Origin: a virus | IMG/VR virus record: IMGVR_UViG_3300025886_000013 | Direction: 5' to 3' (one strand) | DNA: 64,000 nucleotides | In this document: positions 53,538-64,000 of the stretch, in pieces | Position numbering within the stretch: the first letter of the stretch is position 1 | How the letters are laid out: each line of letters starts with the position of its first letter | Position numbers and translations under genes: made by a program | Notes under the pieces: generated by a model | What the model was told of the DNA's origin: nothing | The model's input: only the letters and a program-made list of their open reading frames with translations | Database searches by the model: none

Positions 53538-53771
53538 ATGAATACGTGTTACATAGAGAACAAAACAAAGAAAACAAATTGTAAAAAAACTGAATGTAGA
53601 TTTTGGAACGAAAAATGTGAAAATAAATGTGTAATATCTGAATCTGCAAACGGCTCAAAAACATTACAAGAGATAGGTGATATTTTTGGCGTAACTAGAA
53701 TGCGTATATGTCAGGTAGAAAAAAAGATCCTCTCCAAGCTGGAGAAGATCCTTAACAAAGAAATACTATAG
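53538..53771 (+). CDS. Stand-alone sigma70 region-4-like HTH protein with Cys-rich N-terminus
   Basis: KTLQEIGDIFGVTRMRICQVEKKILSKL; five Cys in the first 35 residues. Confidence 0.75.
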   Translation: MNTCYIENKTKKTNCKKTECRFWNEKCENKCVISESANGSKTLQEIGDIFGVTRMRICQVEKKILSKLEKILNKEIL

Positions 53772-53779
53772 TAGTTTCT

Positions 53780-54022
53780 CTATTTTTTTGAAGTCTCTGA
53801 TTTGACTTTAGCAGTTTCCTTAGCTACTGACTTAACAGCTTGAGTTGCTGATTTTTTATATTTGCTCTTTTTTAAGACCTTTGGTGCGGCCTTAACTACA
53901 GGAGCTTCCACAGCTACAGGAGCCTCTACCGCTACAGGAGCCTCTACGGCAGCTGCTGCTGCTGCTTCTGCAGCTTTTCTAGCTTTTATTCTTCTCATTT
54001 TTATACGTTTACGTATGTGCAT
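53780..54022 (-). CDS. Lys/Ala-rich histone-H1-like basic protein
   Basis: Basic N- and C-termini around AAAAAA(VEAPVA)3; GGAG SD; upstream TATTTATA. Confidence 0.6.
   Translation of the reverse strand: MHIRKRIKMRRIKARKAAEAAAAAAVEAPVAVEAPVAVEAPVVKAAPKVLKKSKYKKSATQAVKSVAKETAKVKSETSKK
53894..53947 (-). repeat. Three tandem 18-bp in-frame repeats encoding VEAPVA/VEAPVV
   Basis: Imperfect unit GTAGAGGCTCCTGTAGCN read on the minus strand. Confidence 0.85.
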
Positions 54023-54476: not shown

Positions 54477-54665
54477 TCAAACAGATCTGTCAGTCTCTAG
54501 TGAAACCTTAACAAGTGCAGCGGCGTTGTTCTTTAAAAGGCGTAGCCCTTTACGAAGACGTGTTCCGGCTGTTTTGTTGCCATTTGCATTCTTTAGAAGA
54601 TCAACTTCAATTGTCTCAAGAAGAACCTTGAGCTCTTCAAATCCATCTGTTAAATTACTTTCCAT
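54477..54665 (-). CDS. Histone H1-like Hc1-family nucleoid protein
   Basis: 62 aa; DLLKNANGNKTAGTRLRKGLRLLK matches the Hc1-family signature GNKAAGTRARK; GGAG SD. Confidence 0.8.
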   Translation of the reverse strand: MESNLTDGFEELKVLLETIEVDLLKNANGNKTAGTRLRKGLRLLKNNAAALVKVSLETDRSV

Positions 54666-54927: not shown

Positions 54928-55395
54928 TTATTCTCCAATTGTTTCTTGAAATGATTCGCTTTTTATTTTAAATTTTCCATCACTTACAAAAAGAAGTGAC
55001 TTTATCTGTATATTATCATCTGTTCTCTCTTTTGATAATATAATTTTACTACCCCACATCTCGTTTTCTTCATAGAATTCAGCTAGTTCCCATAAAGAAA
55101 TATCACAATTGTTTGTTTCTAAAATTGATTTTAGTTTATCTGAAACAGACATACCTATATCGAATTCAGTTGGTATAGTTGAAGTTTCATCCCTTCCTCC
55201 AAGAAATTCAGACTTACAAAGATCAACAACGTTATGTAATTGACCACAGTTATTACACTGCGCAAGCTTTGCTTCACAAATTCCGTCATTTAAAATAGAG
55301 AATACTAAAAATTTATGAAATATTGGATCTTTTCTTTTTCTATACTGAGGTAATACACAATGACACTGTATTAGATGTCTAATTCCTTCTTTCAT
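54928..55395 (-). CDS. Putative zinc-binding hypothetical protein
   Basis: HLIQCHC and QCNNCGQLH motifs; ATGA-coupled to the chaperonin-like gene. Confidence 0.6.
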   Translation of the reverse strand: MKEGIRHLIQCHCVLPQYRKRKDPIFHKFLVFSILNDGICEAKLAQCNNCGQLHNVVDLCKSEFLGGRDETSTIPTEFDIGMSVSDKLKSILETNNCDISLWELAEFYEENEMWGSKIILSKERTDDNIQIKSLLFVSDGKFKIKSESFQETIGE

Positions 55396-56684
55396 CTGTC
55401 TTCCATAATAAAATAGTTAGTTGACTTTAAATCTTTTTTAATTTGATTAGCAAATTTTAGCGATATTAATAGTGACGCAGCTGAGATGTATTTTTTATCA
55501 TTTACGTTTTTGATTATTCTTGTAAGGCTGGTATCTGCTGTTTCAATTTTATTTTTCTCTATTATACCAAATTTAAACAGTTGAGTCAAATGACGAAAGA
55601 ATCTATCACAATCTTCAATTATCATCGGGTGTTTATTTAATAATTCTGTTCCAATGTCTACGTTAATTGTATTTGAAGTCAAACCTTTTAGTCTTGCATT
55701 AATGATGTCTTTGTTTATTTCTGGATTCCTTAACTTTTCAGTAAGGTTTTTTATCAAATTATTAGCTGTTTTTTGGTTTTTTGAATTTGATACTATTACG
55801 CTGGTACTATTTATATCAATAGTGACACCTGCCTGTATCCCATTGATTAGTGACATAGATATAATATCACCCATATCGGATGAAGCTATTGTAGCTCCAG
55901 TGATGACTGAGAGGTCTTTTAACATATTTAACGTATTCTCTTCCATAGGGACTTCAATAGGAATAATCGTAAATGCATCTCTAAGATTGTTCGTGTGAAT
56001 AGTATTTAAGACATCATCACCAATAGTTCTTGCAAACAAGACATAGGGTTCTTTAGTTTTGTGAGCCAGTTCCATGAAAGAGTTAATCTCTGATATCTCC
56101 ATGATAGCTCCGTCTATTAAAACAACGTTAGCGTCTTTAAATTTTGTCTTTTGTTTTAGAAAGGCAGGATTAGTCTTAATCGGAATAACGTTGTTAAACG
56201 TTTTATGAATAATAGTGTTAGGTTGTAATCTTTTTCCAACAATAACTTTTGAATTTTTGTCCGATATGTCTAATATGTCAGTTATTAGACTTGATATTAC
56301 TTTATCTTCAAAATATTCTTTTATATATTTTTTAATGTAGGCCCTATCTGGGCGCAAAGATTGTTTATTTAAAGTGTTTATAACATCATCTGAAATGTCT
56401 AAATCATTGTTAAAAATGTTCATCAAAAAATTTAAACAAAGGTCAGATGAACCAGGTGACATCATCTCGGCTTTGATACTTGAATTTAGAACAATAGACT
56501 TAATAAGTCTTATTTCGTTTTTATGCCTACTGTAGACAGCTGCTTGAGTAACAGATTTTGTCTTTAATGTTGTATTGTTAAACAAAGAAAGCTTTTCACC
56601 GACTTCTGTTAGAACAGAAAAATCAGTGAAAAGCTTATCTATGCTTTTTTTTATTTCATTTGAGTTTTTGATTTTGCAAAACAT
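55392..56684 (-). CDS. Degenerate GroEL/Cpn60-like protein (apical domain retained, ATP-binding loop lost)
   Basis: NVVLIDGAI..KEPYVLFARTIGDDVLNTIHTNNLR..MLKDLSVITGATI; INARLKGL; GDGTTT replaced by SPGSSD; 430 aa. Confidence 0.75.
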   Translation of the reverse strand: MFCKIKNSNEIKKSIDKLFTDFSVLTEVGEKLSLFNNTTLKTKSVTQAAVYSRHKNEIRLIKSIVLNSSIKAEMMSPGSSDLCLNFLMNIFNNDLDISDDVINTLNKQSLRPDRAYIKKYIKEYFEDKVISSLITDILDISDKNSKVIVGKRLQPNTIIHKTFNNVIPIKTNPAFLKQKTKFKDANVVLIDGAIMEISEINSFMELAHKTKEPYVLFARTIGDDVLNTIHTNNLRDAFTIIPIEVPMEENTLNMLKDLSVITGATIASSDMGDIISMSLINGIQAGVTIDINSTSVIVSNSKNQKTANNLIKNLTEKLRNPEINKDIINARLKGLTSNTINVDIGTELLNKHPMIIEDCDRFFRHLTQLFKFGIIEKNKIETADTSLTRIIKNVNDKKYISAASLLISLKFANQIKKDLKSTNYFIMEDR

Positions 56685-56988: not shown

Positions 56989-58923
56989 TTAAGAATCTCT
57001 CCACAAGTTGTTAGATGCATATTGAAGAATTTCTTCTGCTGATTTAGCATTGTACCCATAGTCATCAATCATGGTTTGAACCATCTCTGAGTATTTCTCT
57101 TGTTGTCCTTCGTCACGAGTTTTTGACTTTGTAACAATTCTGGCTATATCCTTAACAGAAGAGATTAAGTATGATTCAATTGCCTCACGTAGTGGTCCAT
57201 AACTGTCATAAGTTACTTTTTCTCCTCTTCTCATTTTAGCGAACATAAATGCCGTAACGTCGCTTCTGAATCCGTCTCTTGAAGAACCAACTATTCCGAT
57301 TTGCTCCTCAATTGTCTTAAGGAAGTTCTCATCTGGCTGCATTTCTTCTTTTGTGACTTGATCCTTTAGCTTAGAGTGCGTGGTGTAAGCCTCTGCGTGG
57401 TCAAGATATGAATCAAACAATGACTGAGCTTGTTCAGAGTATGCAGATATGAATGCCTTAGCGATTTCTGTTTCAAGGATTCTTAGATATTCATCACGTA
57501 CAACCTTCTGAAGTATCTCGAGGTATCTACTTCTATCGTCTTCGTTGATAACTTGCTCAGATACTTGAGTTTGAAGTGCTTGAATAACAGAGACAGGTGT
57601 AACAAGATTGTTATCAGAGTCAGAAAGTGCGTTATCTATTGCTTTCATTATAAAGCGTGTTGAAATTCCTTTCATACCTTCATCACGTGATTCACTACGA
57701 AGATCATTAATGTCGATCTTCTTTACTCTTCCTTTTTCAATAACGTCGTCGCCGTTGTAGATTTTCATTTTAGTAAGAATGTCACACTTAGCTGATTCTT
57801 TTAATCTGCTCATTACAGAGAACATGGAGGCTACCCTCAATGTATGTGGTGCAATGTGAGCGTTAAAATCACTCATACCGAGCATCTTATTATAGATTCT
57901 TTCTTCTTGACTTACTTCTAGAACGTAAGGTACGTTGATTTTTACAATACGATCCATAATTGCTTCGTTTGTATGCTCGCTTTGGAATTTGTTCCACTCT
58001 GACTCGTTTGTATGAGCAAGAATAATACCATCAAAGTAGATCATGTTGTTCTTACCAGGACTTGGTACCTGCTTTTCTTGTGTTGCTGTAATAATAGTGT
58101 GCAAGAATTCAATTTCATTCTTGAACATTTCTACCATTTCTACGATACCACGGTTACCAACGTTGAATGCACCGTTAAGTGAGAGAACTCTTGGGTCGTC
58201 TTCTGCGTAAAGATCAAGCTTAGAGATATCTTCCGTTCCAATAAGAACTGATATATCCTGTGAGTTTGCATCCATAGGTGGAACAGCTGCAAGTCCGCGG
58301 CGAGCGCGCTCTGAGAATGATGCTGTTTTTACGGGGAAGTCTTCATATTTTGTGTTAAATTCATTGATGAGTCTGTATCTACATACTGGGCAAAGGTCTC
58401 CTTCGATTTTAACTCCTAGCAGCTCTTCAAACTTGCTACGTAGACTACGTGGTATAAGGTGAAGTGGTTCTTCCCTAATTGGACAACCATCAAGATAGTA
58501 AGCAGGAGCACTCATTTCAAGAGCTCTTTTTATGTGGTTTGTTACAGCTGATTTTCCAGCGCCAACAGGACCCATAAGAAGTAGTACCTGGCGTGATTCT
58601 TCGCCTTTATGCGCAGCTGAGTTTAAAAATCTCATTATTTTGTAAATTGTTCTTTCGTTTCCAAAAAAACTATCCTTAAAATAGTCATATACCTTTATAT
58701 CGTCATTGTCAAAAATCTTTCTCTGACGACCGGTGTCTGGATCTAGGTGAGAGATTCCTTTATTTTCAATAGACTTAACTAACCGCTTGTGGGCTAGATC
58801 GCATATTTCTGGGTTTTTCTTTACAACATCAAGATACTGTAGAAAAGTCCCATTAAACTTTTCTTCTTTTTTAATGTTTCTTTGCGCTTCTATAAGCTTT
58901 AAAAAGTCTTGTTCTTTCGCCAT
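56989..58923 (-). CDS. prkA: PrkA/YeaG family AAA+ ATPase (serine kinase)
   Basis: LLLMGPVGAGKS, CPIREEPLHLIP, GNRGIVEMVEMFK, ILAHTNESEW, EAIMDRIVKINVPY, EGMKGISTRF; 644 aa. Confidence 0.95.
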   Translation of the reverse strand: MAKEQDFLKLIEAQRNIKKEEKFNGTFLQYLDVVKKNPEICDLAHKRLVKSIENKGISHLDPDTGRQRKIFDNDDIKVYDYFKDSFFGNERTIYKIMRFLNSAAHKGEESRQVLLLMGPVGAGKSAVTNHIKRALEMSAPAYYLDGCPIREEPLHLIPRSLRSKFEELLGVKIEGDLCPVCRYRLINEFNTKYEDFPVKTASFSERARRGLAAVPPMDANSQDISVLIGTEDISKLDLYAEDDPRVLSLNGAFNVGNRGIVEMVEMFKNEIEFLHTIITATQEKQVPSPGKNNMIYFDGIILAHTNESEWNKFQSEHTNEAIMDRIVKINVPYVLEVSQEERIYNKMLGMSDFNAHIAPHTLRVASMFSVMSRLKESAKCDILTKMKIYNGDDVIEKGRVKKIDINDLRSESRDEGMKGISTRFIMKAIDNALSDSDNNLVTPVSVIQALQTQVSEQVINEDDRSRYLEILQKVVRDEYLRILETEIAKAFISAYSEQAQSLFDSYLDHAEAYTTHSKLKDQVTKEEMQPDENFLKTIEEQIGIVGSSRDGFRSDVTAFMFAKMRRGEKVTYDSYGPLREAIESYLISSVKDIARIVTKSKTRDEGQQEKYSEMVQTMIDDYGYNAKSAEEILQYASNNLWRDS

Positions 58924-58945
58924 TCTAGATTACCTCTTCCTTTAC

Positions 58946-58953
58946 TATAAATA
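58946..58953 (-). promoter_or_regulatory. Putative late promoter motif TATTTATA
   Basis: Exact 8-mer 22 nt upstream of prkA ATG, followed by GAGGT SD. Confidence 0.55.
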
Positions 58954-58993
58954 ATGCTCAAATTTCAATAAAAAATAAAAATACAAAATATTT

Positions 58994-60298
58994 TTAAATT
59001 TCCCATGGTTCTTCTTCAATTATTGTTTCCAACTTAACTACATTTTTCCAAATTTTTGAAACATTGTTAATAACTACATTGGCATAGTTCAACTCTAAGT
59101 CTCTTCCATCATGATCGTGACCAAGTACTATTGTACCACGTGGTTCAAGAACTTCAACAAACATCTTTGGAATGCTGCCCACGCCTGTTTGCTTTATAAG
59201 ATTGTTTTTTACTTCTTTCCAACCACCTTCATCAGATATTTCATTTATAACGTACGCTTTCTTTTTTCTGTCTTTGGCGTAAGAAAATAAATTAAGATCT
59301 ATCATTTGATCTAGATCAAGATAATTTCTAATAAATGATTCATCATGAAACACTTCTCTGATCATAAAGATTTCATCTCTTCCTAGTTCTTTGTCAAGTT
59401 TTTGAAACATTTCAAATCCAAGATGATATGGATTGATCCCACCAATGTGAGGACGTATGACCTGGTTGTGAGATTTAATAAAAGGCAAATGCATTTTAGA
59501 TGGAAGTTTTAGCTCGTTCATTATTGTATAATGCCAGTAAGAAGCCCATCCTTCATTCATAATTTTTGTTTTAATCTGTGGAATGAAATATAATGATTCT
59601 TCTCTTACGATATTAATGACATCTAGTTCCCAATCAGAGAAATGTTTTCCTTGTTCCATAAAGAATGCTAGTAGATCGTATTCTCTTCTTAAAGGGACCT
59701 GATTAATATCAACACCGATATTCTCACCAGATTTTAGTCTTTCACTTAGTTCATCTCTAACTTCTTCGTAAGACATTCTTTTAATGCTGTCTCTATTTAC
59801 TTGATATTTTATAGAGTGAAGACTATCTAACAAACTTTCTACTTTGTCAATTCCAATACTTGGATCTTCCATGTAGTTTTTTATTCTTTTCTTTGCGTTT
59901 CTAAAACGAGAGACAGCAGAAGAAGGCCTTGTATCACCAAATGTAATGTTATTTTTAAAGAAATCGCTATGACCAATACAGTGTGCCATAATAAGAACTT
60001 GTAAATATAGTGGGTTCTCTTTCATGAGATAAGCAATTGAAGGATTAGAATTAATAATAAGTTCGTAAGGTAACCCAGACTGCCCATGGTTGTACATCTG
60101 ATGTGTTCTTTCAAATGATTTACCATAACTCCAATGATCATAGTGAGAAGGCAGCCCATGATAGCTCATATGACCTATCATCTCGTAGTAATCACAAATA
60201 TCATAGTTAATAGGAAACCAATCTAGACCGAAATCAGCAGCTACATTGCAAACTCTTTCATCCCACTCTTCTAGTTCTTTTACTGTCCAGTCAGACAT
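58994..60298 (-). CDS. spoVR: SpoVR/YcgB family protein
   Basis: GLPSHYDHWSYGKSF, YELIINSNPSIAYLM, AHCIGHSDFFKNN, YFIPQIKTKIMNEGWASYWH, NPYHLG, DESFIRNYL. Confidence 0.95.
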   Translation of the reverse strand: MSDWTVKELEEWDERVCNVAADFGLDWFPINYDICDYYEMIGHMSYHGLPSHYDHWSYGKSFERTHQMYNHGQSGLPYELIINSNPSIAYLMKENPLYLQVLIMAHCIGHSDFFKNNITFGDTRPSSAVSRFRNAKKRIKNYMEDPSIGIDKVESLLDSLHSIKYQVNRDSIKRMSYEEVRDELSERLKSGENIGVDINQVPLRREYDLLAFFMEQGKHFSDWELDVINIVREESLYFIPQIKTKIMNEGWASYWHYTIMNELKLPSKMHLPFIKSHNQVIRPHIGGINPYHLGFEMFQKLDKELGRDEIFMIREVFHDESFIRNYLDLDQMIDLNLFSYAKDRKKKAYVINEISDEGGWKEVKNNLIKQTGVGSIPKMFVEVLEPRGTIVLGHDHDGRDLELNYANVVINNVSKIWKNVVKLETIIEEEPWEI

Positions 60299-61473
60299 TA
60301 TTTCATTCCTCCAAATAGTTTAACAAATGCTGGCCAAATATCATCTTTAGACTGTAAGAGCATTGTTTTAAATTTATTATCTATTAATGGTGTATACACG
60401 TTCATCATTGTATTCCCACTACTCCAGCTTGCCCACTCTTGTTGACCAGATGGCTTTATTTCAATAAAACCATACATTTGACTTTTTTCTTTTAGTTGTC
60501 TTGTAAGCTCTAGAGCTTTGTCGTTGTCCTCTGACCAGTTATCACCATCTGATCCGTGGAACGCATAAATGTTCCAGCTTGAAGGATGGTATCTTTTATT
60601 CATAACTTCCAAAGCCAGTTCAGGCGCAGATGAAACAAACGTTCCACCACTTTGCCCACGAGAGAAAAACTCAGATTCTGATACTTCCTTTGCTTCAGTT
60701 GTATGCGCTATAAACACAACTTCAATTTTGTCGTATTTATAACGAAGAAACTGGTATAAAAGAAAAAAGAATGATCTTGCAATAAATTTCTTTTGAGTCC
60801 CCATAGAGCCTGAAACATCCATCATGAAGAAAATTACAGCATTACTGTTTTCTTTAGGCGTCTCTGTTATAAATTTATATCTTAGATCATTTTCGTGGAA
60901 GGGAAATCTTGCTTCATCTTCATCGCTGTATGTGCCAGCTCTTTTAGCAGCATTTTTTCTTCTTAGCTTGCGCTTAAGTGTTTCTTTTTTATCTAGACGT
61001 GGTCTAATACCTTGATTGCGATAACCATGTCGCTTCATTTTTTCACCAATGATATTAGTGAATCTTTTCTTTTCAAGGTCAGGAAGATTAAGTGAATCAA
61101 ATAGATATGCTGCCAACTCTTCTAGTGAGATCTCTACATCATAGAACTCTTCACCGGATTCACTGCCTGGTTTATTTCCACTTGCTTTTTCTTTCTTGTC
61201 AGCCTTACCTATCTGTTGTCCCTTTCGTATGTTCTTGCCTGGAGCTGACCCTACCTGTTTATTTGTATCGTTATCGCCAAATACAAATCTGTATTCTTTT
61301 ATACCCTTGACAGGAATTTTTATTTTTTTCTTTCCATCTTGACCAATAATAGATTCGTCTGCAATAATGTCATGAATTCCTTCACGTATTGCTCTTTCTA
61401 TTTTTTTCTTGTGACGAGATCTATCAGATGCTGATCTATCTGCAATCGTTTTATGTTCCTTAAAAATGCTCAT
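60298..61473 (-). CDS. yeaH: YeaH/YhbH (DUF444) vWA-domain protein
   Basis: KIKIPVKGIKEYRF, PFHENDLRY, AVIFFMMDVSGSM, VFIAHTTEAKEV, GGTFVSS, WNIYAFHGSDGDNW. Confidence 0.95.
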   Translation of the reverse strand: MSIFKEHKTIADRSASDRSRHKKKIERAIREGIHDIIADESIIGQDGKKKIKIPVKGIKEYRFVFGDNDTNKQVGSAPGKNIRKGQQIGKADKKEKASGNKPGSESGEEFYDVEISLEELAAYLFDSLNLPDLEKKRFTNIIGEKMKRHGYRNQGIRPRLDKKETLKRKLRRKNAAKRAGTYSDEDEARFPFHENDLRYKFITETPKENSNAVIFFMMDVSGSMGTQKKFIARSFFFLLYQFLRYKYDKIEVVFIAHTTEAKEVSESEFFSRGQSGGTFVSSAPELALEVMNKRYHPSSWNIYAFHGSDGDNWSEDNDKALELTRQLKEKSQMYGFIEIKPSGQQEWASWSSGNTMMNVYTPLIDNKFKTMLLQSKDDIWPAFVKLFGGMK

Positions 61474-61509: not shown

Positions 61510-62079
61510 TTAAAGTGTATTAGCAATAGCCGTATTAATCATCTCCTGATTATATCCACGAATATAACTATTCATTACCATTTCATTATCAATAAAAAAG
61601 AAAGTAGGCCAGCTAGAAATATAAAATCCGTCATTAGAAGTAACGTCAATCATTTCATCCCTTGGGGCTGATAATGTAGGAGTATCTAGTTCGAAATTAT
61701 TTATCCATTCAACAAGTTCAGATTGAGTAGGAGTGTTTCCTGACCATCCTTCAACAATTAAACTAATATAAACGATCTCATCTTCTTTAAACAGCTCCAT
61801 TGTGTCTGGTATTTCATATGCAGCTTGTTGACAATAATAGCACCCAATCGTAGAAAAATTTAAAACAATTGTCTTACCATAAAAATCATAAAGATTTACT
61901 TCATTACCTTCGTCATCTAAAAGCGCAAAATTACATGTATATTCTCCGACTACATAACCGCAGTCATTAAATATAACATTGTTCGCTATTGATTCGTTTG
62001 TGTCAATGCTGTTTTCAACTTCAAAAGTAGAAGATTCACAACCAGTTAAAAGAATAAAAAATAAAGCTGATTTAAACAT
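61510..62079 (-). CDS. TlpA/ResA-like thioredoxin-fold lipoprotein
   Basis: Lipobox LTG-C, NFALLD..VNLYDFYGKTIVLNF, active site CYYC, WPTFFFID. Confidence 0.82.
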   Translation of the reverse strand: MFKSALFFILLTGCESSTFEVENSIDTNESIANNVIFNDCGYVVGEYTCNFALLDDEGNEVNLYDFYGKTIVLNFSTIGCYYCQQAAYEIPDTMELFKEDEIVYISLIVEGWSGNTPTQSELVEWINNFELDTPTLSAPRDEMIDVTSNDGFYISSWPTFFFIDNEMVMNSYIRGYNQEMINTAIANTL

Positions 62080-62413
62080 GATATTTCATCCATTCATAAT
62101 TGTTTCTACTTTCTAAGTATCCGTTATCAACAGAGTGCTCATAAGCTTCTTGTTCAAATCTAGTTTGATAGTAAGCCAGGTCACTATCTCTATATTTCAG
62201 CAATCCACGTATCCAATCATAAAGGTACAAAGCTAAAAATCCTATTACAAAAAGCTCGTTATACTGGGCAATGTGAATTGACTCATGACGTATAAGTCTC
62301 TCATTAGCTGTATCTTTAATAAATATAAAAGGCCACAGAGTTATTGCACCTATGTCTGCTATTAAACTAATTATTTTTGGGACTTTACTGTTTTCGATTA
62401 TTATTGGTTTCAT
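62072..62413 (-). CDS. Membrane-associated HExxH metallopeptidase-like protein
   Basis: AITLWPFIF..LIRHESIHIAQ..hydrophobic helix..RFEQEAY. Confidence 0.7.
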   Translation of the reverse strand: MKPIIIENSKVPKIISLIADIGAITLWPFIFIKDTANERLIRHESIHIAQYNELFVIGFLALYLYDWIRGLLKYRDSDLAYYQTRFEQEAYEHSVDNGYLESRNNYEWMKYHV

Positions 62414-62437: not shown

Positions 62438-62445
62438 TATAAATA
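62438..62445 (-). promoter_or_regulatory. Putative late promoter motif TATTTATA
   Basis: Exact 8-mer 24 nt upstream of ATG at 62413; overlaps the start codon of the divergent protease gene. Confidence 0.45.
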
Positions 62446-63215
62446 TGTTTACAAATAGAGTTAAAATTTTACTTTCATCTGTGGTGATAGTGTCTATATG
62501 TTGTCTTATAACCTTTGAATCAAAAAAATCAGAAGTAATAGTTCTAAACGAGGCAAGAGAGTCATTCGTTAAGATAATTGTAGAAAACGAAGTGCTAGTT
62601 GCAGATTGCTCTGAAATAGAAATAACATCAGACAATTGTCCAGAGGCATATTATTCCTCAGAGGGATATAAAATAACAGGCTCAGGTATAATAATAAATC
62701 ATAAAAAAGATAACTATATTTTGTCTGTAGATCATATATGCGAGAAAATGATAGAAGGTCTTATATTTGATGAAAACAAAACAACGTTAATAAGACGCTC
62801 AACACATTCAGCAATGACGCTAGAAGGTATGCTTCATAGGGTAGAAATACTTAAGCGCGACAAAAAAAATGATTTATGTTTGCTTGAATTTGAAAGAAAT
62901 GACAAATATAACGCAATCAATGTCTACGAAGACAATTTAATTCCAGGTGAAAGAGTGTATAATTTAGCTGCACCAAGAGGAGTTTTTGAACCAGGAAACG
63001 TATTAATATTCGATGGGTTCTTTACAGGGACAACAATGGCAGCAAGTAACAGCAATATGTTCTCTATTTATGCAGAACATGGAAGTTCTGGTTCTGCAAT
63101 AATAAATAACAAAGGTGAACTAGTCGGCATAGTACATTCTGTATCTACAAAAATAGACAATGCTACGATTGGCACAAGCATAGAACAAATTAGAGAGTTT
63201 TTAGAAAATGAATAG
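62445..63215 (+). CDS. Trypsin-like serine protease with N-terminal signal/membrane anchor
   Basis: GSGIII..ILSVDHIC (His), NDLCLL (Asp), HGSSGSAIINNKGELVGI (Ser). Confidence 0.88.
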   Translation: MFTNRVKILLSSVVIVSICCLITFESKKSEVIVLNEARESFVKIIVENEVLVADCSEIEITSDNCPEAYYSSEGYKITGSGIIINHKKDNYILSVDHICEKMIEGLIFDENKTTLIRRSTHSAMTLEGMLHRVEILKRDKKNDLCLLEFERNDKYNAINVYEDNLIPGERVYNLAAPRGVFEPGNVLIFDGFFTGTTMAASNSNMFSIYAEHGSSGSAIINNKGELVGIVHSVSTKIDNATIGTSIEQIREFLENE

Positions 63216-63633
63216 AAAATTATATATCGATAAGAATCTACACAAATGTGTAGATAATTGTGAAGTTGCAAAGAGATTTATTAATTTCTGTGGTGATAAA
63301 CTAGAAATAGAATGTGACTACGAAATATATGTTGTAGAGAATAGATCTGAAAACAACATAACAACGACGGCATTTTATGATCCAAACAATAAAATAATAA
63401 AAATCTATGGAAAAAATAGAGCATTTGTCGACGTGTTAAGATCAATAGCACATGAGATGACTCACATGAGGCAGGATATTAATGGTGAGATAACAGGACC
63501 TATCCAAGACATTGGAGGTTATCACGAGAACCAGGCAAATGCAATGTCCGGGGCCTTAATAAAGATGTTCGCTAAAGACGATGACGAAGGACGTGTGATA
63601 TATGAAGGAATGAGACAGAGAAAATTAATCTAA
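63208..63633 (+). CDS. HExxH zinc-metallopeptidase-like protein
   Basis: TAFYDP..IKIY..LRSIAHEMTHMRQ..HENQANAMSG. Confidence 0.7.
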   Translation: MNRKLYIDKNLHKCVDNCEVAKRFINFCGDKLEIECDYEIYVVENRSENNITTTAFYDPNNKIIKIYGKNRAFVDVLRSIAHEMTHMRQDINGEITGPIQDIGGYHENQANAMSGALIKMFAKDDDEGRVIYEGMRQRKLI

Positions 63634-64000
63634 ACGATTTTTAGAATCTTATTGATCTCATTAGGGTTCTCTTCCTCTTTGGCTTTCATAGCAGATGCAA
63701 CTCCACTGCTTTTAATATTTATGTCTCCAAAAAAAGCTTCGCAATCATTTTTCATATCTCGAGTAACTTTTCCACGAACGTAAAAGTGAACTCTGTCTTT
63801 GCTTCCTTGCCAAGATAAGCCCACGTCTTTGGCTATCGCAACAATAGGTTCCCAAGTAGCATCAGAGCTCTTCATTCTAGCAGACACGACTTTTCCATTC
63901 TTGTCAGGAGGAAGATTTACATTTATGTCTAGTGCAAAGCCATATTGATGATCAGATCTACATGGTTGAGCTGTCATACTACCTTTACCGCTGTCACGTA
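63630..64000 (-). CDS. Peptidase M15-family peptidoglycan hydrolase, C-terminal part (5' end outside the window)
   Basis: SDHQYGFALDI (SxHxxGxAxD), GLSWQG..DRVHF; frame stays open upstream of 63977 to the window edge. Confidence 0.8.
   Translation of the reverse strand, partial: RDSGKGSMTAQPCRSDHQYGFALDINVNLPPDKNGKVVSARMKSSDATWEPIVAIAKDVGLSWQGSKDRVHFYVRGKVTRDMKNDCEAFFGDINIKSSGVASAMKAKEEENPNEINKILKIV

What the first reader, a model, noticed from the sequence alone, without database searches (positions are those of the whole stretch)
56989..61473. Complete, re-ordered YeaH-SpoVR-PrkA trio in a lytic-type phage genome
Seen: three full-length genes with intact motifs (Walker A GPVGAGKS; vWA DVSGSM and SDGDNW; SpoVR TKIMNEGWASYWH). 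Transcription order is yeaH, spoVR (TAATG coupled), prkA; yeaH has a sigma70-like leaderless start while prkA has its own TATTTATA motif and SD. Known: bacteria usually have prkA/yeaG first; the trio is tied to sporulation, stationary phase and nitrogen starvation, resembles AAA+/vWA chaperone pairs, and its substrate is poorly defined. The PrkA motifs look closer to the Bacillus type as I recall them. Inference: the phage keeps the whole machine and times the ATPase separately from its adaptors, so it may be repurposed for host proteome remodelling or virion assembly.
Basis: partly seen in the sequence, partly recalled or inferred. Interest (0 to 1): 0.85.

Follow-up and report, generated by a model that had tools for sequence, protein, structure and literature searches.

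The report
Phage-borne PrkA-YeaH-SpoVR stress module, permuted
An uncultured marine T4-like phage carries intact, strongly conserved copies of a bacterial three-gene starvation module (YeaH, SpoVR, PrkA); it shares them with a large family of related ocean phages, so the find is real and probably important to the phage, but it is another example of something already seen in phages.

Summary
Three minus-strand genes at 56989-61473 encode full-length DUF444/YeaH, SpoVR and PrkA, and every quoted motif is present. The window is a T4-like myovirus.

The trio is not host DNA or a misassembly. At least 90 IMG/VR contigs carry it in the same order (yeaH-spoVR-prkA) and the same synteny. Near-identical DNA occurs in 14 other marine or estuarine studies. 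dN/dS against the closest relative is 0.02-0.04.

It is not new in kind:
- PHROGs has families for all three proteins.
- Thermus phages, Ralstonia phage RsoM2USA and huge phages carry the trio.
- This scan has noted it before, in 56 findings from about 48 genomes.

The phage PrkA nests in a proteobacterial subtype (about 55% identity), not the Bacillus type.

"Separate timing of the ATPase" is not supported. The same TATTTATA motif precedes both blocks and virion genes, and many relatives have almost no spoVR-prkA gap.

Two new results:
- A complex model supports YeaH binding SpoVR (0.87; best control 0.00).
- The SpoVR model has a zincin metallopeptidase-like fold without the catalytic Glu.

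Given the 2026 report that YeaG drives starvation proteolysis, phage-driven recycling of host protein is the leading hypothesis. It is untested.

The parts
60298..61473 (-). yeaH-like gene (DUF444, 391 aa). C-terminal vWA domain with a MIDAS-type DVSGS (219-223) and SDGDN (308-312). The basic N-terminal 90 residues are predicted to wrap SpoVR.
   Evidence: Pfam PF04285 377 bits. TIGR02877 scores 421.6, below its 468 cut-off. phrog_19072. Motifs. Complex model.
58994..60298 (-). spoVR-like gene (434 aa) without the SpoVR_C tail. Its start overlaps the yeaH stop (TAATG). The model has a zincin-like fold with invariant H106, H110, D112, E249 and H256.
   Evidence: Pfam PF04293 402 bits. Alignment A2 invariants. 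AlphaFold model pLDDT 85. All 50 listed VIA-align matches are zincin-type folds, Z 10.5-5.7.
56989..58923 (-). prkA/yeaG-like AAA+ gene (644 aa). Walker A GPVGAGKS (118-125), conserved acidic Walker-B-like EMVEMFK, and a PrkA C-terminal domain.
   Evidence: Pfam PF08298 471 bits and PF06798 265 bits. Motif alignment. PDB 9xip family, E 5e-96.
58946..58953 (-). Sense-strand TATTTATA promoter-like motif, 23 nt upstream of the prkA ATG. GGAAGAGG (58933-58940) lies between it and the start.
   Evidence: Sequence. 7 of 9 copies of the motif lie 19-33 nt upstream of minus-strand starts, binomial p about 9e-10. Present at this position only in some relatives.
62438..62445 (-). The same TATTTATA motif, 25 nt upstream of the 113-aa gene that opens the co-oriented block p113 / thioredoxin-fold lipoprotein / yeaH / spoVR.
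61510..62413 (-). Two upstream co-oriented genes, probably co-transcribed with yeaH-spoVR. One is a 113-aa protein with an HESIH (HExxH) motif. The other is a 189-aa AhpC/TlpA-like thioredoxin-fold protein with a lipoprotein-type signal (LLTGC) and a CYYC motif. They are shared only with the closest relative, L004.

Best explanation
This is a working three-protein module that the ancestor of a large clade of uncultured marine T4-like phages took over as one block from a bacterial prkA-yeaH-spoVR operon of a proteobacterial subtype. The gene order was then permuted to yeaH-spoVR-prkA.

The module consists of:
- PrkA, an AAA+ ATPase.
- YeaH, a vWA/MIDAS adaptor. Its N-terminal arm is predicted to clamp SpoVR, which leaves the vWA domain free. 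By analogy with MoxR-vWA pairs, the free domain would bind the ATPase (inferred).
- SpoVR, which has a zincin metallopeptidase-like fold.

In this phage the genes sit behind a phage promoter-like motif that is also found in front of virion genes. They are therefore probably made together with structural proteins (inferred).

Most likely mechanism (inferred, about 35-40%): the module switches on, or replaces, the host's YeaG-dependent starvation-type bulk degradation of cytoplasmic proteins. That would turn host protein into amino acids and energy for virion synthesis in nutrient-poor seawater.

Shown here: gene integrity, clade-wide conservation, purifying selection, origin, and predicted YeaH-SpoVR binding.

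Not shown here: expression timing, any enzymatic activity, the substrates, and the host.
For: Integrity and family membership.

Phage context.

Clade-wide conservation in one order:
- 39 of 42 IMG/VR loci, including four contigs cut within the trio.
- All 56 marine-clade loci (54 complete), partly overlapping the first set.
- Conserved GroEL-like / p155 / PhoH synteny downstream.
- The best 120 protein hits are all 69-99% identical marine sequences.

Selection and independent recovery:
- dN/dS is 0.022-0.039 against L004.
- Population variants in other samples are almost all at third codon positions.
- Near-identical DNA occurs in 14 other studies.

Origin:
- The phage PrkA clade is monophyletic (SH-aLRT 100) and nested among proteobacterial rows.
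- SpoVR phage plus the same bacteria form a split with support 98.
- For YeaH the AU test does not reject the same grouping (p 0.385).

Phages carry at least three different PrkA subtypes, so uptake was repeated.

Predicted binding: YeaH-SpoVR complex model ipSAE 0.87 against a best control of 0.00. This mark was reached by 51 of 78 solved complexes and 2 of 108 mismatched pairs. The three runs share at least 83% of contacts, and the partner pLDDT is at least 87.

SpoVR fold: zincin-like.

Promoter motif positions.

Literature:
- E. coli YeaG is required for starvation-induced, largely non-specific cytoplasmic proteolysis (PMC13684143).
- B. subtilis PrkA shows ATP-dependent protease activity in vitro (PMC9512850).
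Against: - No activity, substrate or infection phenotype is known for any phage copy.
- B. anthracis PrkA had negligible protease and kinase activity in vitro (PMC13001217).
- SpoVR has HCIGH where zincins have HExxH. The catalytic Glu is missing across the family, so it may not be a protease.
- RNA evidence is a single 221-nt metatranscriptome contig over the prkA 5' end, and that could be DNA carry-over.
- The host is unknown, so it cannot be said whether the phage supplements or replaces a host system.
- PrkA-YeaH contact was not modelled.
- Late timing rests only on a shared motif.
Confidence: 0.55

Rival explanations
1. Virion-assembly or maturation chaperone. The AAA+/vWA pair works like MoxR-vWA systems, to insert a cofactor into, or remodel, a phage structural protein. 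It would not act on the host proteome.
For: The same promoter-like motif precedes virion genes and both trio blocks. In Thermus phage Lalka8 the trio lies between the portal/minor head genes and TerL. A degenerate GroEL-like gene follows prkA across the clade.
Against: The nearest cultured relatives by portal protein (Flavobacterium phage immuto, Microcystis phage Mel-JY01) are not among the 17 phage records with PrkA, so T4-like assembly does not need it. Phages with unrelated virion types carry the trio. The cellular module works in the absence of any virion.
Confidence: 0.12
2. Host-takeover signalling. PrkA acts as a Ser/Thr protein kinase (as first annotated) and phosphorylates host regulators, comparable to T7 gp0.7. 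YeaH and SpoVR would be regulators.
For: The PrkA C-terminal domain has distant kinase similarity, and YeaG/PrkA were first described as kinases (cited in PMC13684143 and PMC9512850).
Against: The kinase P-loop is degenerate, and ATP binding maps to the Walker A motif (PMC9512850). No kinase activity was found for B. anthracis PrkA. This reading does not explain why all three genes are always kept together.
Confidence: 0.1
3. Dormancy or anti-defence. The trio pushes the infected cell into, or holds it out of, a stationary-phase or abortive state so that infection can finish. The neighbouring Hc1 histone-like and PhoH genes would be part of the same programme.
For: PhoH, Hc1 and a sigma-70 region-4 fragment lie in the neighbourhood. 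The cellular trio belongs to stationary-phase regulons.
Against: PADLOC shows no match to known defence families apart from a weak generic AAA hit. Nothing links Hc1 to the trio functionally.
Confidence: 0.1
4. Host DNA, a misassembly or a decaying passenger. Alternatively, manipulation of endospore formation, as viral spoVR genes have been read in virome surveys.
For: One GenBank 'phage' hit (Enterobacter phage LAU1) is simply host yeaG-yeaH at the end of a prophage record. The ISME J 2021 OMZ virome paper classed spoVR as a sporulation AMG.
Against: Here the synteny is the same in about 90 viral contigs of up to 300 kb. GC matches the flanks. dN/dS is 0.02-0.04. The DNA is recovered in many independent samples. 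The donor lineage and the marine setting point to non-sporulating bacteria.
Confidence: 0.03

Closest known systems
Bacterial prkA(yeaG)-yeaH(yhbH)-spoVR(ycgB) module, in particular the proteobacterial/Binatia subtype found here (loci L047-L064)
   Same: The same three families with the same domain content. Identities are PrkA 51-56%, YeaH 39-54% and SpoVR 38-46%. Walker A, the MIDAS motif and the SpoVR invariant residues are kept. The yeaH-spoVR adjacency is preserved.
   Different: Gene order is permuted, with prkA last instead of first. The genes are carried by a virus behind a phage promoter-like motif. SpoVR is about 40 aa shorter than in these bacteria.
Trio-carrying cultured and metagenomic phages: Thermus phages phiYS40/TMA/Lalka8, Ralstonia jumbo phage RsoM2USA, huge phages LR756502/LR756511
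   Same: Complete PrkA + DUF444 + SpoVR sets in lytic-type phages. The Thermus phages share the yeaH-spoVR-...-prkA order. No function has been studied in any of them. RsoM2USA's authors only list the genes (PMC8504454).
   Different: They carry other PrkA subtypes (Bacillus-like or YeaG-like) at only 30-34% identity, so they were acquired separately. RsoM2USA and the huge phages keep the bacterial order.
E. coli YeaG (SpdA), driver of starvation-induced protein degradation
   Same: Same family (NF011999 397 bits, below the equivalog cut-off). The AAA+ core is conserved.
   Different: About 31% identity and a different subtype. The E. coli study did not address YeaH or YcgB. Nothing has been tested for the phage protein.
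MoxR-type AAA+ / vWA adaptor pairs and gluzincin metallopeptidases (M1, M4, M32)
   Same: The architecture is an AAA+ ATPase plus a MIDAS-bearing vWA protein. The SpoVR model matches zincin catalytic domains (Z 10.5-5.7). It carries HxxxH on one helix and NEGWA on a later helix. From memory, the latter resembles the M1 'NEGFA' zinc-ligand motif.
   Different: PrkA is its own AAA+ family. The Glu of HExxH is absent from SpoVR, and the spacing between the two motifs is about 140 residues, far longer than the short spacer I recall in M1 enzymes. There is no sequence-level match to any solved peptidase.

Membership tests
PrkA/YeaG AAA+ family | N-terminal PrkA AAA domain (PF08298) plus PrkA C-terminal domain (PF06798), above Pfam cut-offs | tested here: met
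   470.7 and 264.8 bits against cut-offs of 25.
PrkA/YeaG AAA+ family | Intact Walker A (GxxGxGKS) and the conserved acidic Walker-B-like segment and Arg region | tested here: met
   GPVGAGKS at 118. EMVEMFK and NEAIMDR align with the bacterial and Bacillus sequences.
PrkA/YeaG AAA+ family | Equivalog of enterobacterial YeaG (NF011999 cut-off 576) | tested here: not met
   396.9 bits, below the cut-off. The tree places it in another subtype.
PrkA/YeaG AAA+ family | ATPase activity, ATP-dependent proteolysis | not testable with these tools
   Needs biochemistry. The literature is split.
YeaH/YhbH (DUF444) vWA proteins | PF04285 above cut-off, with MIDAS-type DxSxS and a downstream acidic motif | tested here: met
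   377 bits. DVSGS at 219-223 and SDGDN at 308-312.
YeaH/YhbH (DUF444) vWA proteins | Equivalog of Bacillus sporulation protein YhbH (TIGR02877 cut-off 468) | tested here: not met
   421.6 bits, below the cut-off.
SpoVR/YcgB family | PF04293 above cut-off | tested here: met
   401.8 bits over residues 3-374.
SpoVR/YcgB family | C-terminal SpoVR_C domain (PF24755), as in YcgB-type proteins | tested here: not met
   Not detected in the window protein. It is detected in RsoM2USA's SpoVR.
Canonical bacterial operon | Order prkA-yeaH-spoVR | tested here: not met
   The order is yeaH-spoVR-prkA here and in all marine-clade loci. All 16 nearest-subtype bacterial loci that hold all three genes are prkA-first, and three more hold only part of the operon.
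Zincin (gluzincin) metallopeptidases, for SpoVR | Zincin fold: beta-sheet, active-site helix, glutamate helix | tested here: met
   All 50 listed VIA-align matches are zincin-type domains (M1, M4, M30, M32, M3, M61, DUF885, TAF2, YbeY), Z 10.5-5.7 over residues 1 to about 340. Foldseek alone was not significant.
Zincin (gluzincin) metallopeptidases, for SpoVR | HExxH catalytic motif | tested here: not met
   The sequence is HCIGH (H106, H110). The family consensus is H-V-x-G-H, so the general-base Glu is absent.
Zincin (gluzincin) metallopeptidases, for SpoVR | Third metal ligand Glu on a downstream helix, and the three ligands close together in space | tested here: inconclusive
   Invariant E249 lies in NEGWA on helix 245-262.
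T4-like myoviruses | gp20-type portal and T4-type large terminase | tested here: met
   PF07230 265 bits and PF03237 58 bits. The best portal matches are T4-like or 'far-T4' phages.
Known anti-phage defence systems (PADLOC) | Match to a defence-system protein model | tested here: not met
   Only a weak generic AAA hit (DolB, 21.8 bits) for PrkA, and none for YeaH or SpoVR.

The most novel reading that the evidence does not exclude
The trio is a self-contained ATP-driven protein-degradation machine. In it SpoVR would be a so far unrecognised zincin-derived subunit, tethered by the N-terminal arm of YeaH to the PrkA AAA+ motor. Abundant ocean phages would deploy it late in infection to convert the host's cytoplasmic proteome into amino acids and energy for virions. 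That would be the protein counterpart of T4's recycling of host DNA, and a viral use of the newly described YeaG-dependent 'bacterial autophagy-like' programme.
Probability: 0.2. Interest if true: 0.85.

Novelty: new member of a known kind. Interest (0 to 1): 0.5.

Why it matters
The PrkA/YeaG-YeaH-SpoVR module is one of the most widespread bacterial gene sets whose biochemistry is still unclear. In October 2026 YeaG was reported to be required for bulk starvation proteolysis in E. coli.

Phages took the whole trio at least three separate times. A very large marine T4-like clade has kept it under strong purifying selection. This argues that the three proteins form one portable unit that pays off during infection.

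Phage copies give compact, host-independent versions for biochemistry and structure work. The predicted YeaH-SpoVR clamp and the zincin-like SpoVR fold give concrete residues to mutate.

Ecologically, viral 'spoVR sporulation AMGs' counted in ocean viromes are better read as parts of this module in phages of non-sporulating hosts. That changes how such counts should be interpreted.

Tried and rejected
- Megablast of the trio against GenBank phages: no match. The phage has no close sequenced relative.
- No whole genome is held for this window, so there is no genome-wide view and the host could not be assigned.
- Host hints conflict:
  - An Hc1-type gene suggests Bacteroidota.
  - The PrkA sister rows are Alphaproteobacteria.
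  - SD-like sequences precede many of the genes.
  - One clade member is binned as Methylococcaceae (L046), most likely a mis-binned 305-kb phage contig.
- PADLOC: no defence-system match.
- Foldseek of the SpoVR model against PDB: nothing significant. An HMM profile of SpoVR against PDB sequences also found nothing. Only the exhaustive structural aligner showed the zincin likeness.
- YeaH tree: the sister relation of phage and nearest bacterial rows was not recovered, but the AU test does not reject it.
- Sigma-70-like and terminator scans: at background level, so not usable.
- B. subtilis PrkA T217, the PrkC phosphosite, is Ile in the phage. It is also Ile or Val in the related bacterial subtypes, so this is not a phage-specific escape.
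The second gave only contig-level data. RNA support is therefore minimal.
- Permuted order as a phage signature: rejected, because L091 and L096 have the same order in clearly cellular contexts (FtsK, tRNA synthetase, PBP5).
- Literature searches linking SpoVR to T4-like phages or to zincins found nothing relevant. The paper behind PDB 9xip was not found.

Full report
**Observation.** Pfam assigns them to DUF444 (377 bits), SpoVR (402 bits) and PrkA (AAA_PrkA 471 bits plus the PrkA C-terminal domain 265 bits). NCBIfam places each below the equivalog cut-offs of Bacillus YhbH, enterobacterial YcgB and YeaG, so they are family members but not orthologues of the textbook proteins. All quoted motifs are present. 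The TAATG overlap, the TATTTATA before prkA, the purine-rich SD and the TATAAT directly before yeaH are also there.

**Context.** The window is a T4-like myovirus. It has a gp20-type portal, a T4-type large terminase, an Mre11-Rad50 fusion, PhoH and glycosyltransferases. The nearest cultured portal relatives are Microcystis phage Mel-JY01, Flavobacterium phage immuto and Rhodothermus phage RM378, at 31-44% identity. GC of the trio equals that of its surroundings. No whole genome is held.

**Is it real and kept?**
- IMG/VR holds 42 loci found with the single protein. Of these, 39 have PrkA at 66-94% identity, all with yeaH-spoVR-prkA in the same order and with a conserved GroEL-like / 155-aa / PhoH series downstream.
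- A second, profile-based scan gave 56 marine-clade loci, all in that order, on contigs up to about 290 kb.
- The protein database returns at least 120 clusters at 69-99% identity from Tara, ENA and JGI marine data.
- A 305-kb contig binned as 'Methylococcaceae TMED69' carries the same synteny and is most likely a phage.
- Near-identical DNA occurs in 14 other marine or estuarine studies.
- The differences seen in three of those runs fall almost only on third codon positions.
- dN/dS against the closest relative is 0.039 for yeaH, 0.037 for spoVR and 0.022 for prkA.
- Misassembly, host contamination and decay are therefore excluded.

**Origin.**
- The nearest cellular PrkA proteins (51-56% identity) come from Alpha-, Gamma- and 'Delta'-proteobacterial, Binatia and similar MAGs. 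YeaH and SpoVR are also most similar to the neighbours of those same genes. Every one of those loci that holds all three genes has the order prkA-yeaH-spoVR.
- Bacillus-type PrkA is 37-40% identical and the enterobacterial type about 31%.
- In the PrkA tree the marine phages form one clade (SH-aLRT 100) nested inside this proteobacterial subtype, next to alphaproteobacterial rows (95).
- The SpoVR tree has a phage-plus-same-bacteria split at 98.
- For YeaH the phages are monophyletic, and joining them to the same bacteria is not rejected (AU p 0.385).
- The simplest reading is one block transfer followed by a permutation.

**Other phages.** GenBank phages with PrkA number 17 records.
- Thermus phages TMA and Lalka8 have DUF444-SpoVR-(one extra gene in TMA)-PrkA.
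- Ralstonia phage RsoM2USA has PrkA-DUF444-SpoVR.
- These phages, the huge phages and 17 further IMG/VR contigs belong to the Bacillus-like or YeaG-like subtypes.
- So phages acquired the trio at least three times.
- The Enterobacter phage LAU1 'hit' is host flank.
- The permuted order also exists in two clearly cellular Bacillota contigs, so it is not a phage hallmark.

**Already known?**
- PHROGs v4 has families for all three proteins, two of them without a function label.
- The RsoM2USA paper lists SpoVR and PrkA in tables and gives only a KEGG/Blast2GO-based guess for SpoVR.
- A marine OMZ virome study reported spoVR as its most abundant 'sporulation' AMG.
- I found no study of the trio's role in any phage.
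- This scan has noted phage-borne trios 56 times in about 48 genomes, including the permuted form.
- The kind is therefore known. The window is a new member of a large, uncultured marine clade.

**Regulation.** Sense-strand TATTTATA occurs nine times in the window. Seven copies lie 19-33 nt upstream of minus-strand start codons (binomial p about 9e-10). Those starts include large virion-type genes (860 aa and 1697 aa), the prkA start, and the start of the 113-aa gene that opens the block containing yeaH-spoVR. Both parts of the trio thus share one motif class with structural genes. That argues for common, probably late, timing and against separate timing.

Among relatives the spoVR-prkA spacer ranges from overlap or 1-18 nt up to 727 nt. 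The motif is at that position in only a few of them. The TATAAT before yeaH is shared only with the closest relative. Sigma-70-like matches are at background frequency.

One 221-nt contig from a marine metatranscriptome matches 58748-58940 exactly. This is weak evidence of transcription.

**Mechanism: what the proteins show.**
- PrkA keeps the Walker A motif, the acidic Walker-B-like segment and the Arg region. It matches a recently solved 'serine protein kinase' (9xip, E 5e-96).
- YeaH keeps a MIDAS-type vWA motif.
- A complex model of YeaH with SpoVR passed the tool's test. The ipSAE was 0.87 in three runs against a best control of 0.00. This mark was reached by 51 of 78 solved complexes and 2 of 108 mismatches. 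The runs share at least 83% of contacts, and the partner pLDDT is at least 87.
- In that model the interface is the N-terminal 91 residues of YeaH wrapped around SpoVR, leaving the vWA domain free. This fits the fact that yeaH-spoVR adjacency survives both gene orders.
- An AlphaFold model of SpoVR (pLDDT 85, pTM 0.85) had no significant Foldseek match. In the exhaustive structural search, all 50 listed matches were zincin-type domains: M1 aminopeptidases, LTA4 hydrolase, thermolysin, M32, M3, M30, M61, DUF885, TAF2 and YbeY. Z was 10.5-5.7.
- These Z values are middling for a helical protein. The uniformity of the list is what carries weight.
- Invariant H106 and H110 sit four residues apart on helix 97-116. 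Invariant E249 sits in NEGWA on helix 245-262. From memory, that resembles the M1 NEGFA zinc-ligand motif.
- The catalytic Glu of HExxH is missing (HCIGH; family consensus H-V-x-G-H). SpoVR may therefore be an atypical or inactive zincin.

**Mechanism: literature.**
- E. coli YeaG is required for starvation-induced, largely non-specific degradation of cytoplasmic proteins that supplies amino acids and ATP (PMC13684143).
- B. subtilis PrkA degrades casein in an ATP- and Walker-A-dependent way (PMC9512850).
- B. anthracis PrkA alone showed negligible protease or kinase activity (PMC13001217). That would fit a need for partner proteins.
- Taken together, the best-supported hypothesis is that the phage module drives starvation-type turnover of host protein to feed virion synthesis.
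- I put this at roughly 35-40%. The broader claim, a functional co-acting three-protein module that benefits the phage, is near certain.
- The rivals are an assembly chaperone, kinase signalling, and control of dormancy or defence. None is excluded.

**Verdict.** The finding is a new member of a known kind: phage-borne PrkA-YeaH-SpoVR modules. Its value lies in four things: the size and conservation of the marine clade, repeated independent capture by phages, the two structural predictions made here, and the timely link to YeaG-dependent proteolysis, which makes the function testable.

Noticed in passing
window 5676, 14207, 32503, 52118, 54055, 58946, 62438 (plus-strand TATAAATA, i.e. sense TATTTATA for minus-strand genes): Seven of the nine copies lie 19-33 nt upstream of minus-strand start codons (p about 9e-10), including large virion-type genes. 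This is a probable phage promoter motif that reads as the reverse complement of T4's late TATAAATA.
   Followed up: partly
window 62072-62413 (-): A 113-aa protein with an HESIH (HExxH) motif followed by a hydrophobic stretch. It matches PHROG 15610 'protease', and its Atlas neighbours are viral hypotheticals with a weak eCIS_core link. It is a possible mini-zincin that opens the block containing yeaH-spoVR.
   Followed up: partly
window 61510-62079 (-): An AhpC/TlpA-like thioredoxin-fold protein with a lipoprotein-type signal (LLTGC) and a CYYC motif. It looks like a phage-encoded periplasmic thiol-disulfide oxidoreductase. It is shared only with the closest relative, L004.
   Followed up: no
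window 55392-56684 (-): A 430-aa protein with only a partial match to the phage chaperonin GroEL family (phrog_5725, residues 175-346) and no Pfam Cpn60 hit. It is conserved downstream of prkA in most clade members.
   Followed up: partly
window 54477-54665 (-) and 53780-54022 (-): A 62-aa Hc1 histone-H1-like protein (PF07432, 44.5 bits), and nearby an 80-aa Lys/Ala-rich repeat protein behind its own TATTTATA motif.
   Followed up: partly
window 53538-53771 (+): A 77-aa protein that consists of little more than sigma-70 region 4 (PF04545, 36 bits), on the strand opposite its neighbours. It may be a transcription-takeover factor.
   Followed up: no
window 62445-63215 (+) and 63630-63977 (-): A trypsin-like serine peptidase (PF13365, 52 bits) and a peptidase M15 (D-Ala-D-Ala carboxypeptidase-type, endolysin-like) gene at the strand switch just upstream of the trio block.
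   Followed up: no
L046 (NHDW01000006.1, 305,838 bp, labelled Methylococcaceae bacterium TMED69): This contig of a bacterial MAG carries the phage-clade trio with the same GroEL-like / p155 / PhoH synteny (PrkA 70% identical). It is probably a jumbo-phage contig binned into a MAG.
   Followed up: partly
L091 and L096 (Bacillota MAG contigs): The cellular loci (flanked by FtsK, acyl-CoA dehydrogenase, a tRNA synthetase and PBP5) have the permuted order yeaH-spoVR-prkA. The permutation therefore arose in bacteria as well.
   Followed up: yes
PDB 9xip / 9xiq / 9xir: Three recent entries (30 chains) of a 692-aa 'Serine protein kinase' match the phage PrkA at E 5e-96. No paper describing them was found in the library.
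   Followed up: partly
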